A stretch of DNA of 64,000 bases from Candidatus Latescibacterota bacterium (GCA_965222605.1 OZ244960.1:32001-96000), one strand, 5' to 3'; shown: positions 5,129 to 19,052, numbered from the stretch's first letter. Notes: generated from the sequence alone by a model not told the origin. Program-made: numbers and translations.

Positions 5129-6022
5129 ATGGTCATTCGCATTTCAAACCTGACAAAAGTATATCGCCGTGGCGCAGTTCCCGCCTTAGACGATGTCACC
5201 TTGAGGATCCCACACGGAACATTTGGTTTGTTGGGGCCCAATGGTGCAGGTAAAACAACGCTGATTAAAATTTTATCAACTCAGATGGACGCATCGAGTG
5301 GTAGCGTGACCATGGATGAGTTCGATCTGGTAAAAGACCGCACAGAGATTCGCCGGCGTCTGGGATATTTGCCCCAGCATTTTGGGACCTATCCCCAATT
5401 GACGGCCTGGGAATTTCTCGATTATATGGCTGTTTTGGGCGGCATACACAATAGAAGAGTGCGTCTGAATCGCGTAGAGCAAGCTCTAAACGAAGTCGGT
5501 TTATACGAAGCGCGCAATCGGCGCTCGGGCACTTTTTCCGGTGGCATGATGCGCCGCCTTGGCATTGCACAGGCCATTCTGGCCGATCCAGAGTTTCTCA
5601 TTGTCGATGAACCCACCGTGGGACTTGACCCGGAAGAACGCATCCGATTCCGGAGTATTTTGGGACGCTTGAGTAGTGATCGCGCAATTTTGATCTCCAC
5701 GCATATAGTGGGCGATATTTCGAGCACCTGTGAAGATCTCGCGGTTTTGGATACAGGACAACTGATCTTTCGCGGTTCTCCCGCAGAACTCATTTCAAAA
5801 GCCGATGGAAAAACGTGGGAAGTACAGGTCAATGATGCTGGCTTTGAAATGCTGTCGCGGGTGTTTCGCGTGGTCACAGTAAATGTTGAAGGCGATCAGA
5901 TGCGTTTGCGTATGGTAGGAGATGGCGAGCCACCCGCTGATGCCGAAGCGATCGCACCTAACCTCGAAGATGCCTATGTCTATTTCGTCGGAGGCGATAC
6001 CACGGGCGAAATCGCAGCGTAA
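5129..6022 (+). CDS. ABC transporter ATP-binding protein (ABC-2 exporter type)
   Basis: Walker A GPNGAGKT, Q-loop YLPQ, signature FSGGM, Walker B LIVDEP, H-loop STH. Confidence 0.95.
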   Translation: MVIRISNLTKVYRRGAVPALDDVTLRIPHGTFGLLGPNGAGKTTLIKILSTQMDASSGSVTMDEFDLVKDRTEIRRRLGYLPQHFGTYPQLTAWEFLDYMAVLGGIHNRRVRLNRVEQALNEVGLYEARNRRSGTFSGGMMRRLGIAQAILADPEFLIVDEPTVGLDPEERIRFRSILGRLSSDRAILISTHIVGDISSTCEDLAVLDTGQLIFRGSPAELISKADGKTWEVQVNDAGFEMLSRVFRVVTVNVEGDQMRLRMVGDGEPPADAEAIAPNLEDAYVYFVGGDTTGEIAA

Positions 6023-6034
6023 AGGATCAATACC

Positions 6035-16600: not shown

Positions 16601-18352
16601 CCTCTGGCACTCAAGTTTGGCGGCGATTACGAAATTTGGCCGCCCTTTGCGATTACACTACTGGGAGGGCTGGCAGTTTCAATGGTTTCTACTCTCGTAT
16701 TTATCCCCGTGGTGTACATGGGAATTGACCAGACCAAAGCCTGGCTGGCGGATATTGGCTGGTTCGGGATTGTATTGGGGACGGCAGCGGCAGCGGGATT
16801 GACGTATTGGGTTGACGATTATTACCAGAGTTTGTTCTGGACCTGTCTTCTGGCATTGCCGGCGTGGATGGTGTGTATGGGCGCGGTCTGGATTGTGCAG
16901 CGCATTTATCGCTCGCGTATGGCTTCTCGCGTTGAGATCGGCAGGGTCGATCATCTCGAAATTCGCAATCTGACAAAAATTTACGGCGCGCCGGGGCAGT
17001 TTAAGCGAGAATGGGATCGTTTTAAGCGGCGCAATCAGCGCCTTTCAGAGCGCGGACAGGTAATGGTAGATAAAAAGGCGATTCAGGACAGTTTGTGGTG
17101 GAAGTTGCCTCTTCTGGCTCTGCTACTTTATTTGGAAACCTATTTTGAACAGGGAACATGGATCTTTTTAACAGGGCTCGCCCTGTGGGGCCTCGTGCAT
17201 CATCTCGTGCTATGCACGGCTGCTTTGCGCGGTTTCCAGATTGAGAACCGATGGATATTGCAAATCGCCCGATTGATTTTGCCGCTGGTCTTTGTGGCCT
17301 TTGTTCATTGGCGTTTGGAACTTCTGTCTTTGACCATAGCCACTTGTGCAATTTACTTGCTCTATCGCATTATCGGATTTTTGGCAGATCGCGTTGCACG
17401 AGGCCGCGTTGATCCCGAACATATACCGGGGCGGTTAGGACCTGTTAAAGGTATTGTGTATCGCGGTGCTGCAGCCGTTCCCATCATTGGTGTTCCCCGC
17501 CCGCAATTCCAGGCCCTCGGCGGCGTGAGTCTCGATATTCCGCGCGGGATGTTTGGGCTTTTAGGCCCCAATGGCGCGGGCAAAACCACGCTGATGCGGA
17601 TTGTGTGTCGGGTTTTGTCGTCAAATTACGGATCAGTGCTCGCCAATGGCAAAACGCCGCTCACCCATCGGAATATGCAGGGGGTGATTGGATATTTGCC
17701 GCAGCACTTTGGCCTGTATTTGCACATGTCTGCGTATAATTATCTGGAATACCGCGCGCTTTTGGAGGGATTTAAGGACGGGGTAGCACGGCGCAAGCGC
17801 GTTCAGGAATGTCTGGAGCAGGTCAATCTGTGGGACAGGCGCGACGACCCGATTGGTTCGTTCTCTGGCGGTATGAAACAACGCGTGGGCATTGCACAAA
17901 CCCTGTTGCACTTACCACAGATTATTGTGGTGGATGAGCCAACAGCGGGATTGGATCCACTCGAGCGGATCCGGTTTAGAAATTTACTGGCGCGATTTAG
18001 CCAGGAAAAAATCATTATTTTTTCCACGCATATTGTCGAAGATATTGCGGGCAGTTGCAACCGATTGGCCGTGCTGAATCACGGCAAGGTGCTCTATACG
18101 GGAACCCCACTTGAAATGCGCGATTTGGCGCGCGATAAGGTGTGGGAAGCCCTGCTACCAGATCCGCGTTTTGAAGCGTTGGAACGCGACCTGGATATGA
18201 TTACACATGTGCGCGTGCCCGATGGGATTCGGGTGCGATTTCTCGCAACCGATCCCATCCCAGAAGCGCGTGTAGTTGATCCCACCCTCGAAGATGCATA
18301 CCTCTATCTTTTGCGACATGGCGATGAATACAAACAGGCTAACATGGCGTGA
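13628..18352 (+). CDS. RND permease fused to extra TM helices and a complete ABC ATPase domain
   Basis: aa 1-~1035 RND (GMLTDNGIVVMEN, GIAVNNGIVLID, RVRPILMTS). The C-terminus has GPNGAGKT, YLPQ, FSGGMKQR, IIVVDEP and STH in the same uninterrupted frame. Confidence 0.9.
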   Translation: MTLAGIAVRRPVTTAMFFIGLAILGAISLDRLPVQIFPELVRPEVFITLNQQGYSPEQVERDLVMPVEREVGKLEGIEAYESFSRQNNGGVRISYAPNTDMKFALLQLESRITRLQPLLPERTRVNVQRFDSSDLSASVMQIHVLGEGDINWLREFAEEKIRPELEAVDGVVNAQVLGGQRTAIEIIVDPLMLQAHQLSMSDIRNRINAFNTRRQYLGRVYDGNQTYAVSIQGQFTDLVQIRRVVIKPELPLHLGDIAEIRYGLQERTDLQRINGKAAVGIRIQKDDEANLIDIAEILEDTIERINRDLVYENIQLVISQNQAEIMNEALNILKRAAVVGGLLGLFVLFLFLRNLRFVAVLLLAIPCSLLLTFNLMYMWNLSLNVLSMCGLALAIGMLTDNGIVVMENIFKHFEQGKSPKEAAKAGTDEVARAVVAATATTITVFLPVVFIQSDFQDILRELALSMTFPLLASLLVALTLVPALASKTLSLASRPPTETGTLIEMYTVCLKAGLRHRISVSLGIVGALVVTLIISFFFMLQQDIRREESRFTVYISMPEGTTIEALDAVVGEIESAVRGLKGVDRFTTSISEIQASINVELLPLSERPDQISVDLIKENLEESFADVQDAIVSYEAIARTGRGGGGGRGGGGRGIRGAGQASGGFNLEGGTPSEMAVIRGYDFTVLQMLADDLVYRLEELEEIDPNSVRADAERGASEVHVLPDEEVMFDRRLQVRQVLNAVSDANPRGARSNIAFLTPEGTEIPIDIRNVEDPEEEGEGIAGLRQTPILGAGGTYIPLVEVSHVRRDQGRSMILRTDQSRRVIVSYNFGDEILQSQPLLEASRAYVQDVVSEMVLPEGYSIEMIEAEEETIYYWMIGIAALLIFMILASLFESLSAPLIILCTLPTAIIGSCWALVLSGTGLTQQEGPMALLGFIILGGIAVNNGIVLIDAIETLRRRRGFRRERAVLAASRSRVRPILMTSATTILGVLPLALKFGGDYEIWPPFAITLLGGLAVSMVSTLVFIPVVYMGIDQTKAWLADIGWFGIVLGTAAAAGLTYWVDDYYQSLFWTCLLALPAWMVCMGAVWIVQRIYRSRMASRVEIGRVDHLEIRNLTKIYGAPGQFKREWDRFKRRNQRLSERGQVMVDKKAIQDSLWWKLPLLALLLYLETYFEQGTWIFLTGLALWGLVHHLVLCTAALRGFQIENRWILQIARLILPLVFVAFVHWRLELLSLTIATCAIYLLYRIIGFLADRVARGRVDPEHIPGRLGPVKGIVYRGAAAVPIIGVPRPQFQALGGVSLDIPRGMFGLLGPNGAGKTTLMRIVCRVLSSNYGSVLANGKTPLTHRNMQGVIGYLPQHFGLYLHMSAYNYLEYRALLEGFKDGVARRKRVQECLEQVNLWDRRDDPIGSFSGGMKQRVGIAQTLLHLPQIIVVDEPTAGLDPLERIRFRNLLARFSQEKIIIFSTHIVEDIAGSCNRLAVLNHGKVLYTGTPLEMRDLARDKVWEALLPDPRFEALERDLDMITHVRVPDGIRVRFLATDPIPEARVVDPTLEDAYLYLLRHGDEYKQANMA

Positions 18353-19052
18353 GTTGTTTTTCTTTGTCGGGAAATTGCACAGCCTGAGCATGAGAATCGT
18401 TTTTCACCGCAAAATGATTTTTATGTTCGGCGGAATTGTGGCGTATTACGCAATTTTGTACGCGATCGCAATCTGGCGTCCCGGTGAGGGGTTTTCAGTC
18501 GAGCAAGCCCTCCATGTATTGGTCGAAGTGCCAGGCACGGTGCTTGCGATCTATCTAACGATGGATCTGGTGTCCGGGGAGAGAGATAAGGATACGCTTG
18601 AAATTTTGTTCAGTACGGCTATCAGCCACTACGCGACATGGTCCGTGAGAATTGTGTCGATCTGTGCTGCGCTATTTGCCACGCTGATGGTGATGAGCAC
18701 GATTTCCTACTATTTTTTTGCAGAGTTTCCCTATCTCCTGGGCGGATTGAATGCCTGTATCCCTGCCTTTTTTATGGTGGGGGCCACATTTCTATTTTCG
18801 GTATTGTGTCGCAGTGGCAATGCGGCCGGCATGCTCGCTGTTGGGCTTTTGATTGCGGTTTTGCTTTCGACCGAGACGTTTGAGGATACATCGTATTACC
18901 TTTTTCTCAAACCATTTGACGCGCCTTCAGATTTAGATACCAGCTTGTGGATAAATCGCGTGGTGTTAAACCGCGCGGGCATTGCCATTCTGGGTATATT
19001 GTTCATTTTTCTGGCTCTGAGACGAATGATAGAGCGCGAAAAGCTGCTGTAA
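18318..19052 (+). CDS. ABC-2 type permease
   Basis: ~6 TM; ERDKDTLEILFS motif typical of ABC-2 permeases; start 18318 or 18324. Confidence 0.8.
   Translation: MAMNTNRLTWRELFFFVGKLHSLSMRIVFHRKMIFMFGGIVAYYAILYAIAIWRPGEGFSVEQALHVLVEVPGTVLAIYLTMDLVSGERDKDTLEILFSTAISHYATWSVRIVSICAALFATLMVMSTISYYFFAEFPYLLGGLNACIPAFFMVGATFLFSVLCRSGNAAGMLAVGLLIAVLLSTETFEDTSYYLFLKPFDAPSDLDTSLWINRVVLNRAGIAILGILFIFLALRRMIEREKLL

What the first reader, a model, noticed from the sequence alone, without database searches (positions are those of the whole stretch)
5129..19052. Hybrid RND-ABC export machine: six-gene operon with an RND permease fused to an ABC ATPase
Seen: six co-oriented genes with overlapping or <15-bp junctions encode ATPase, ABC-2 permease/M1-like/golvesin-like protein, MFP, RND, RND::ATPase fusion and ABC-2 permease. 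The inventory is exactly two NBDs plus two different ABC TMDs (one heterodimeric ABC transporter) and two RNDs plus one adaptor. All NBD motifs are intact in both ATPases, and both RNDs keep the TM4 Asp/Glu and TM11 RP..MT residues. Established: RND pumps (AcrB, CusA, MdtBC) are proton-driven and lack ATPase domains; ABC tripartite pumps (MacAB, HlyBD) lack RND subunits. Inference: the fusion physically tethers an ATP-driven ABC module to a hetero-oligomeric RND-MFP conduit, giving a dual-energy envelope machine. It might move a large substrate (protein, lipoprotein or polymer) rather than drugs. I know of no characterised example.
Basis: partly seen in the sequence, partly recalled or inferred. 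Interest (0 to 1): 0.88.

Follow-up and report, generated by a model that had tools for sequence, protein, structure and literature searches.

The report
RND efflux pump fused to ABC ATPase
A conserved operon encodes a proton-driven RND efflux pump subunit joined in one protein chain to an ATP-driven ABC transporter ATPase, an arrangement found in several bacterial phyla for which I found no published study.

Summary
Six co-oriented genes (5129-19052) encode an ABC ATPase, an ABC-2 permease with a large periplasmic domain (inactive M1-peptidase-like part plus carbohydrate-binding-like Golvesin_C), a membrane fusion protein, an RND permease, a 1574-aa RND::ABC-ATPase fusion, and a small ABC-2 permease.

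The fusion is not an assembly error. Contigs from two other sequencing studies span the junction without indels. More than 100 protein clusters of about 1570 aa carry both domains.

The gene order recurs in all 37 related loci with enough upstream flank. These come from the window's own phylum (MAG relatives labelled Gemmatimonadota/Latescibacterota), Bacteroidota and Zixibacteria. In 30 of the 37 a TolC-like outer-membrane gene is also present; the window's lineage lacks it in the cluster.

New anatomy: six extra transmembrane helices join the RND to the ATPase. Four of them sit inside the ATPase, between its first strand/A-loop and its core. This linker occurs only in this protein family.

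Both ATPases keep all catalytic motifs. The two ATPases are paralogues, and so are the two permeases. The RNDs carry the same membrane-core residues as unfused paralogues.

Best reading (inferred): one envelope-spanning machine that couples a heterodimeric ABC-2 transporter to a heteromeric RND pump. The substrate is unknown. Eight literature searches found no description.

The parts
5022..5049 (+). Terminator-like hairpin after the upstream fdhD gene. It marks the likely 5' limit of the operon. A GAGGAG ribosome-binding site lies 8 nt before the ATG at 5129.
   Evidence: 12-pair stem followed by a T run; sequence read directly.
5129..6022 (+). NBD1: free-standing ABC ATPase of 297 aa, DrrA/GldA-like, with all catalytic motifs.
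   Evidence: Pfam ABC_tran 1.8e-30. NCBIfam drrA 193 bits and GldA 182 bits, both below their cut-offs. Motifs conserved in 15 sequences.
6035..6868 (+). PermM1 membrane part (aa 1-278): ABC-2-type permease with a probable seventh helix that would place the rest of the protein in the periplasm.
   Evidence: Weak Pfam and GldF hits. ABC2_membrane families hit in 7-9 of 24 homologues. Paralogous to Perm2. The hydropathy script found five helices. Helices 6-7 and the topology are my reading of the translation.
6932..8584 (+). PermM1 M1-aminopeptidase-like region (about aa 300-850; limits approximate) without catalytic motifs.
   Evidence: The profile matches the N-domain and post-catalytic part of M1 peptidases in the PDB. 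Peptidase_M1 hit in 11 of 24 homologues. HExxH and GxMEN found in 0 of 24.
8954..9316 (+). PermM1 Golvesin_C domain (aa 974-1094), related to the C-terminal module of xanthan lyase and carbohydrate-binding-like.
   Evidence: Pfam 3.2e-14; present in 24 of 24 homologues. PDB 6f2p, E 2.7e-11. A passage of PMC9166713 places golvesin and xanthan lyase in a CBM6-CBM35-CBM36_like_2 domain family.
9496..10569 (+). Periplasmic adaptor (membrane fusion protein), 357 aa.
   Evidence: NCBIfam RND_mfp 192.7 bits, above its cut-off of 94.9. Pfam HlyD_D23.
10566..13631 (+). RND1: RND permease of 1021 aa.
   Evidence: ACR_tran 3.2e-231. Best solved relative is MdtB, 1e-94. TM4 'DN', TM10 'VND', TM11 'RLRP..MT'.
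13628..16726 (+). RND2: the RND permease part (aa 1-1033) of the 1574-aa fusion protein.
   Evidence: ACR_tran 1.4e-178 over aa 5-1033. D400, N401, N944, N945 and R977 are invariant in 11 of 11 fused homologues.
16760..16897 (+). Two extra predicted TM helices (TM13-14, about aa 1045-1090) after the RND.
   Evidence: Translation. The hydropathy script found one of them; the other is read from the sequence. Conserved Trp residues.
16949..16999 (+). Displaced first strand and A-loop of NBD2 (aa 1108-1124, 'LEIRNLTKIYG').
   Evidence: hhalign aligns NBD1 1-17 to this segment, E 0.0034 over 17 columns. K1117 and Y1119 are invariant in 34 sequences. The GldA profile match to the core starts at profile position 16.
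17099..17386 (+). Insert of four predicted TM helices (aa 1158-1253) inside NBD2.
   Evidence: The script found three helices; the fourth is read from the sequence. The insert is unrelated to ABC-2 permeases. The linker profile occurs only in this family.
17507..18334 (+). NBD2 core (aa 1294-1569): Walker A, Q-loop, signature, Walker B, D-loop and H-switch all intact.
   Evidence: hhalign to NBD1: probability 100%, 42% identity over 276 columns. Motifs. Closest solved relatives are ABCA3/4/1/7 NBDs, NosF and LptB.
18318..19052 (+). Perm2: small six-helix ABC-2 permease of 244 aa counted from ATG 18318. The listed ORF starts at TTG 18276. It overlaps the end of the fusion gene.
   Evidence: ABC2_membrane_2 or _3 hit in 8 each of 24 homologues. 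Paralogous to the PermM1 membrane part.
19888..19925 (+). Strong terminator-like hairpin after the downstream TPR gene (19181-19843). It is a possible 3' end of the transcription unit.
   Evidence: 15-pair stem followed by a T run; TPR domains.

Best explanation
The operon encodes one composite envelope pump.

Shown:
- A full-length RND permease is joined to an ABC ATPase through six extra membrane helices.
- It is always encoded next to a second RND, one adaptor, a second ATPase and two paralogous ABC-2 permeases. In most lineages a TolC-like outer-membrane factor is there too.

Inferred:
- NBD1 pairs with the tethered NBD2, and PermM1 pairs with Perm2. This gives one asymmetric type-V-like ABC transporter.
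- The tether anchors this transporter to an RND1/RND2 hetero-oligomer, as in MdtBC. One fused RND2 per trimer would supply exactly one NBD2.
- ATP hydrolysis moves or presents an amphipathic or glycan-bearing substrate at the inner membrane or periplasm. The periplasmic inactive-peptidase and carbohydrate-binding-like domain of PermM1 would take part.
- The RND trimer, presumably proton-driven, expels the substrate through the adaptor and an outer-membrane factor. In this genome that factor is encoded elsewhere.
For: 1. The fusion is real. Contigs of two other studies span it without indels. More than 100 of the 120 listed 90%-identity clusters are 1486-1646 aa with ACR_tran plus ABC_tran. The Atlas holds 6 clusters of at least 50 members with both domains.

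2. Distribution. It is present in 83 of 168 genomes of the window's phylum, with one match per genome, and in 20 of 20 genomes of the same genus. It also occurs in Bacteroidota, Zixibacteria and Latescibacterota records.

3. Synteny. MFP>RND1>fusion is present in 37 of 37 loci with enough upstream flank. PermM1 is present in 36 of 37. An outer-membrane factor is present in 30 of 37. Perm2 is present in 37 of 39. Four more loci agree. The outer-membrane factor was confirmed by Pfam in three loci.

4. Both NBDs keep all motifs and are paralogues. The two permeases are paralogues.

5. The topology is self-consistent, with an even number of extra helices and a K/R-rich cytoplasmic loop.

6. The linker profile hits only 160 of 1.84 billion representatives. 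All 20 listed hits of 1550-1590 aa carry it at about residues 1017-1312.

7. RNA-library contigs cover the junctions. This is only a weak sign of expression.
Against:
- A three-fold RND trimer and a two-fold ABC dimer need an asymmetric assembly, which is assumed, not shown.
- The window's cluster has no outer-membrane factor. Seven OEP genes lie elsewhere in the genome.
- The system is dispensable. It is missing from about half of the window's phylum and was found in only 4 of 401 sampled Bacteroidota-phylum genomes.
- A few shorter relatives without an RND domain sit on long contigs and may be natural split forms. Their context could not be checked.
- The Perm2 and PermM1 permease hits of the window's own proteins are below Pfam cut-offs.
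- Flanking genes differ between loci and give no substrate clue.
Confidence: 0.55

Rival explanations
1. Mechanotransmission model. The ABC module does not carry substrate across the inner membrane. As in NosDFY, FtsEX, LolCDE or MacB, ATP hydrolysis moves the large periplasmic domain of PermM1 (inactive M1 fold plus carbohydrate-binding-like domain). That domain captures a periplasmic or outer-leaflet glycoconjugate or peptide and loads it into the RND, or it gates or assembles the pump.
For: NosF is among the closest solved prokaryotic relatives of NBD2 (E 4.6e-38). JGI names several PermM1 homologues after the NosY-type permease. PermM1 carries about 870 predicted periplasmic residues with no catalytic motifs (0 of 24). 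Its Golvesin_C domain is conserved in 24 of 24 homologues. RND pumps are known, from general knowledge, to take substrates from the periplasm or outer leaflet.
Against: No sequence similarity of the permease parts to NosY or MacB was detected in the PDB search. There is no NosD-like or FtsX-like domain. The closest solved NBDs overall are those of ABCA lipid exporters, which do translocate.
Confidence: 0.25
2. Two functionally independent pumps. An RND tripartite pump and an ABC-2 exporter are merely co-transcribed, and the fusion only ensures co-expression or co-localisation, without mechanical or substrate coupling.
For: Each module has a complete known parts list of its own. Functional cooperation between separate inner-membrane transporters and RND pumps is described in reviews (PMC4338810, abstract start seen). 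Possible split forms exist.
Against: The fusion, the six-helix tether and the full gene order are kept from Bacteroidota to the window's phylum at only 31-43% identity. The tether domain is found nowhere else. The fusion occurs once per genome and always in this context.
Confidence: 0.13
3. ATP-driven RND. The tethered ATPase powers the conformational cycle of the RND and replaces the proton-motive force.
For: There is a covalent link between the RND and the ATPase. Relative to MdtB, both RNDs have Asn in place of the second TM4 Asp and of the TM10 Lys.
Against: The same 'DN...VNN' signature is carried by most of the 15 RND paralogues in this genome that have no ATPase, so it is not special to the fusion. 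The TM4 Asp and TM11 Arg are invariant. The cluster also encodes two ABC permeases, which an RND-driving ATPase would not need.
Confidence: 0.05
4. Assembly or annotation artefact: a lost stop codon or a frameshift joined two genes.
For: None found.
Against: all show the same continuous frame in independent assemblies and phyla.
Confidence: 0.01

Closest known systems
MdtABC-TolC (heteromeric RND tripartite pump of E. coli)
   Same: Two adjacent paralogous RND genes sit behind one adaptor gene. MdtB is the best solved relative of RND1 (1e-94). MdtB and MdtC are among the NCBIfam hits of both RNDs. A review passage names MdtBC as a rare RND heterotrimer (PMC8277102).
   Different: Scores are far below the MdtB and MdtC equivalog cut-offs. 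MdtBC has no ATPase, no ABC permeases and no extra helices. A heteromeric assembly here is inferred, not shown.
MacAB-TolC and other tripartite ABC pumps
   Same: An ATP-driven inner-membrane component works with an HlyD-type adaptor and a TolC-like channel. A large periplasmic domain sits on the permease.
   Different: MacB has an FtsX-type four-helix permease fused to its own NBD, and no RND (PMC8277102 passage). Here the permeases are ABC-2 type, and no FtsX or MacB domain was hit.
NosDFY (ABC-2 type machine for nitrous oxide reductase maturation)
   Same: NosF-like ATPase. JGI gives several PermM1 homologues a NosY-type permease name. ATP-driven work on a periplasmic domain is a plausible analogy.
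   Different: There is no NosD or NosL, and no nos genes nearby. Permease similarity was not detected by the PDB profile search. NosDFY has no RND partner.
ABCA-type and DrrAB/GldAFG-type (ABC-2, type V) exporters
   Same: The NBD2 profile is closest to ABCA3, ABCA4, ABCA1 and ABCA7 NBDs (2e-66 to 1e-58). NBD1 and NBD2 score best on the DrrA and GldA models. The two halves are unlike each other, as in ABCA or ABCG5/G8 (that comparison is recalled).
   Different: Scores are below the DrrA and GldA cut-offs. NBD2 is split by a four-helix insert and fused to an RND, which none of these has.
SecDF with SecYEG/SecA
   Same: A proton-driven member of the RND superfamily cooperates with an ATP-driven translocation motor (PMC8277102 passage).
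   Different: Those are separate proteins that export polypeptides, with no adaptor or outer-membrane channel. Here the link is covalent and the RNDs are AcrB-type.

Membership tests
RND permease (AcrB/ACR_tran, tripartite type) | Full-length ACR_tran fold with 12 TM helices and two large periplasmic loops | tested here: met
   ACR_tran 3.2e-231 (RND1) and 1.4e-178 (RND2 part), each over the whole model.
RND permease (AcrB/ACR_tran, tripartite type) | Membrane-core charged residues (TM4 Asp, TM11 Arg) used for proton coupling | tested here: met
   TM4 D and TM11 RxRP..MT are present in both RNDs. D400 and R977 are invariant in 11 of 11 fused homologues. The second TM4 Asp and the TM10 Lys of MdtB are Asn here, as in most paralogues of this genome. 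Proton coupling itself was not tested.
RND permease (AcrB/ACR_tran, tripartite type) | Partner adaptor and outer-membrane factor | tested here: inconclusive
   The adaptor is adjacent and scores above the NCBIfam cut-off. There is no outer-membrane factor in the window's cluster. One is present in 30 of 37 related loci, and seven OEP genes lie elsewhere in the genome.
MdtB/MdtC equivalogs | Score above the NCBIfam equivalog cut-off | tested here: not met
   MdtC 395.7 and 321.5 bits against a cut-off of 1774. MdtB 369.4 and 274.8 bits against 1584.
ABC ATPase (catalytically competent NBD) | Walker A, Q-loop, signature, Walker B Glu, D-loop and H-switch | tested here: met
   All are present in NBD1 and NBD2 and in 14 + 12 orthologues. 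Invariant columns are listed. ATPase activity was not tested.
ABC-2 (type V-like) permease | Six-helix permease matching ABC2_membrane models | tested here: inconclusive
   The window's own proteins score below the cut-offs (18.8 and 21.1 bits). 7-9 of 24 PermM1 homologues and 8 + 8 of 24 Perm2 homologues match ABC2_membrane families at E <= 0.01. The two are homologous to each other. No fold was available.
GldA/GldF gliding-motility ABC transporter | Score above the equivalog cut-off | tested here: not met
   GldA 181.6 and 170.6 bits against 402.6. GldF 20.2 bits against 288.5.
M1 aminopeptidase | HExxH zinc motif and GxMEN exopeptidase motif | tested here: not met
   0 of 24 PermM1 homologues have either motif. 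Only flanking parts of the M1 fold match.
MacB/FtsX-type tripartite ABC pump | FtsX-type four-helix permease with the MacB periplasmic domain | tested here: not met
   No FtsX or MacB_PCD hit in any of the six proteins or in the 24 + 24 homologues.

The most novel reading that the evidence does not exclude
This is an obligately dual-energised tripartite pump. One protomer of an RND heterotrimer carries, through a dedicated six-helix tether, half of the motor of a heterodimeric ABC-2 transporter. ATP-driven extraction or flipping of a lipid-linked or glycan-bearing envelope molecule at the inner membrane is thereby handed directly to proton-driven expulsion through the adaptor and the outer-membrane channel. 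I know of no described machine that covalently couples primary and secondary active transport in this way.
Probability: 0.35. Interest if true: 0.9.

Novelty: new variant of a known kind. Interest (0 to 1): 0.78.

Why it matters
RND and ABC pumps are treated as separate, alternative engines of tripartite efflux. A fusion of the two kept across phyla, with its own tether domain and a fixed set of partner genes, points to physical cooperation between an ATP-driven and a proton-driven transporter. Such cooperation has so far only been discussed for separate proteins.

The family offers a defined target for cryo-EM and biochemistry. Homologues exist in cultured Bacteroidota such as Draconibacterium, Labilibacter, Marivirga and Parabacteroides.

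It could show how two-fold and three-fold symmetric machines are joined. It could also reveal an unknown export route for an envelope lipid, glycoconjugate or metabolite in widespread but little-studied environmental bacteria.

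Tried and rejected
1. Loss of the proton relay in the fused RND. The 'DN' (TM4) and 'VNN' (TM10) residues differ from MdtB. They are the common signature of most of the 15 RND paralogues in this genome, so the idea was dropped. 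My regex count over orthologues was too strict. It left many blanks, and I use it only to say that 'VNNG' was seen in 35 of 39 RND2 hits.

2. A triple fusion RND1::RND2::NBD2. It was suggested by open frames of up to 2612 aa. In four fetched loci, RND1 lies in another frame; the long frames are stop-free overlaps.

3. The linker as a degenerate ABC-2 permease. hhalign gives probability below 2%.

4. A second strand-1-like segment just before the NBD core (aa 1262-1280). MAFFT aligned it to the NBD1 start only when the upstream segment had been cut off. hhalign chose aa 1108-1124 instead.

5. Substrate clues from neighbours. The flanks differ between loci: fdhD, TPR, cupin, ferritin, SusD, SEC-C.

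6. Split forms. Most shorter relatives are contig fragments. A few on long contigs could not be examined.

7. The promoter-like match at 5100-5127 overlaps the ribosome-binding site. Promoter-like and terminator-like counts in the region are within about two standard deviations of the shuffled sequence. I do not rely on it.

8. RNA-library contigs are contigs, may include DNA, and are no proof of transcription. Parts of the stretch without RNA cover mean nothing.

9. Literature. Searches found nothing on an RND-ABC fusion. I saw only listings and abstract starts, plus passages of PMC9166713 and PMC8277102 (only its first 300,000 characters are held). Supplements were closed and not consulted. 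Subscription journals and TCDB were not searchable.

10. Paralogues of PermM1 in the window's genome: none found.

Full report
OBSERVATION

Their junctions are 12-nt and 11-nt gaps, two 4-nt overlaps, and an overlap of 35 nt between the fusion gene and the last gene. That figure takes the last gene to start at ATG 18318, where orthologue alignments begin.

Pfam and NCBIfam give the following:
- An ABC ATPase (NBD1).
- A 1149-aa protein with a weak ABC-2 permease signal, a weak Peptidase_M1 signal and a clear Golvesin_C domain (PermM1).
- An RND-type adaptor, above its curated cut-off.
- A full-length RND permease (RND1).
- A 1574-aa chain with ACR_tran over aa 5-1033 and ABC_tran over aa 1299-1440.
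- A small six-helix protein with a sub-threshold ABC-2 hit (Perm2).

A GAGGAG ribosome-binding site precedes the first gene. Terminator-like hairpins lie at 5022-5049 and 19888-19925.

IS THE FUSION REAL?

Yes.
- A search seeded only from the C-terminal 545 residues, but restricted to long proteins, returned 120 listed clusters. More than 100 of them are 1486-1646 aa and carry both ACR_tran and ABC_tran. Source names include Gemmatimonadota, Latescibacterota, KSB1, Calditrichota and Acidobacteriota.
- Members of the cluster at 92% identity are labelled Gemmatimonadota or Latescibacterota MAGs.
- A scan of species-representative genomes found full-length fused frames in Bacteroidota: Draconibacterium mangrovi, Labilibacter sediminis, Marivirga tractuosa, Parabacteroides massiliensis, and Proteiniphilum and Carboxylicivirga MAGs, among others. 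It also found one Zixibacteria MAG and one Latescibacterota MAG.
- In the window's own phylum, 83 of 168 genomes have it, with one match each. That includes 34 of 52 high-quality genomes and 20 of 20 genomes of the same genus.
- In an even sample of the Bacteroidota phylum, only 4 of 401 have it (only the three best candidates per genome were scored).
- Contigs from two other studies span the RND-tether-ATPase junction with substitutions only. Contigs from two RNA libraries cover the junctions too, which is a weak sign of expression.

ANATOMY OF THE FUSION

After TM12 of the RND come two more hydrophobic helices. A K/R-rich loop follows, containing 'LEIRNLTKIYG'. Then come four more helices, then the ATPase core. 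The hydropathy script found four of the six extra helices; I read the other two from the sequence.

Profile-profile alignment puts NBD1 residues 17-294 on fusion residues 1294-1569 (probability 100%, 42% identity). As a second alignment, it puts NBD1 residues 1-17 on fusion residues 1108-1124 (E 0.0034, 17 columns). K1117 and Y1119, the expected A-loop aromatic, are invariant in 34 sequences. The GldA model matches the core only from its position 16.

I therefore read NBD2 as an ATPase split by a four-helix membrane insert. The even helix count keeps both the A-loop and the core in the cytoplasm.

The tether is not related to ABC-2 permeases. A profile of the tether alone (A5) finds only 160 of 1.84 billion cluster representatives. 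All 20 listed hits of 1550-1590 aa carry it at about residues 1017-1312. The rest look like fragments.

THE PARTNERS

Gene order was tabulated for 39 related loci:
- All 37 with enough upstream sequence have adaptor>RND1>fusion.
- 36 of 37 have PermM1.
- 37 of 39 have Perm2 downstream.
- 23 reach far enough to show NBD1 at the head.
- 30 of 37 have a TolC-like gene between PermM1 and the adaptor. Pfam OEP confirmed it in three loci.
- The seven loci without it are the window's closer relatives.

Four further loci agree. The window's genome has seven OEP genes elsewhere.

Other partner properties:
- Both ATPases keep Walker A, Q-loop, signature, Walker B, D-loop and H-switch in all orthologues examined.
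- The PermM1 membrane part and Perm2 align over 218 columns (probability 89%).
- PermM1 has a probable seventh helix, which would put about 870 residues in the periplasm (partly my reading).
- That region matches the N-domain and post-catalytic part of M1 peptidases, and the C-terminal module of a xanthan lyase.
- It has HExxH and GxMEN in 0 of 24 homologues and Golvesin_C in 24 of 24.
- A paper passage groups golvesin and xanthan lyase under a CBM6-CBM35-CBM36-like carbohydrate-binding domain (PMC9166713).
- The closest solved relatives of NBD2 are ABCA lipid-exporter NBDs, then NosF and LptB.

THE RND PARTS

RND1 is closest to MdtB among solved structures. Both RNDs keep the TM4 Asp and the TM11 Arg. 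The second TM4 Asp and the TM10 Lys of MdtB are Asn here, but the same holds for most of the genome's 15 RND paralogues. Nothing therefore suggests that the fused RND has given up proton coupling.

INTERPRETATION

The shown facts are the fusion, its private tether, the fixed partner set, and the paralogy of the two ATPases and of the two permeases.

From these I infer one assembly: a heterodimeric ABC-2 transporter tethered to a heteromeric RND pump. One fused protomer per trimer would resolve the symmetry mismatch. I give this 0.55.

The main rival (0.25) keeps the single assembly. It lets the ABC part act as a mechanotransducer on the periplasmic domain, as in NosDFY or MacB, rather than as a translocator.

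Independent pumps (0.13), an ATP-driven RND (0.05) and an artefact (0.01) are less likely.

The substrate is unknown. The lipid-exporter-like ATPases and the carbohydrate-binding-like domain hint at an amphipathic or glycan-bearing molecule.

NOVELTY

Databases annotate these proteins only generically. Eight full-text searches found no paper on such a fusion. The held part of a large 2021 review uses 'fused' only for MacB and SecDF.

The search library lacks most subscription journals. Supplements were closed.

I rate the system as a new variant of known kinds, with a substantial chance of being a new class of composite pump.

LIMITS

No fold or interface could therefore be tested.

Noticed in passing
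window 8150-8239, 9383-9481 and 15542-15631: Gly/Arg-rich low-complexity stretches (GGGRGGGGRG-like) sit in predicted periplasmic parts of PermM1 (aa 706-735 and the C-terminal 33 aa) and of the fused RND (aa 639-668). Relatives at 52-65% identity keep a similar stretch in the RND. The two KSB1- and Calditrichota-labelled homologues that I read do not.
   Followed up: partly
window 1-3144: A large protein, open at the window's start, with five Lamin Tail Domain repeats and a C-terminal FlgD_ig-like domain. It is probably a secreted or surface protein.
   Followed up: no
L021 2446-5776 and 8506-11677 (Marivirga tractuosa record): In this record PermM1 and RND1 are each split into two ORFs. This is either decay of the system in that strain or sequencing errors.
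   Followed up: no
G077:C57:35705-37339 and G089:C1:3321213-3322847: In two of the 20 other same-genus genomes the match to the fusion's C-terminal part holds one TAA stop. This is a possible pseudogene or an assembly error.
   Followed up: no
window 19181-19843: A TPR-repeat gene follows Perm2 after 128 nt and precedes the first strong terminator-like hairpin. It may be co-transcribed. No homologue was seen beside the cluster in the other loci, but many of them ended too soon to tell.
   Followed up: partly
window 20001-21000: G+C drops to 0.37 against about 0.50 around it. The drop covers a MerR/HTH_17-type regulator gene on the minus strand (20162-20776).
   Followed up: no
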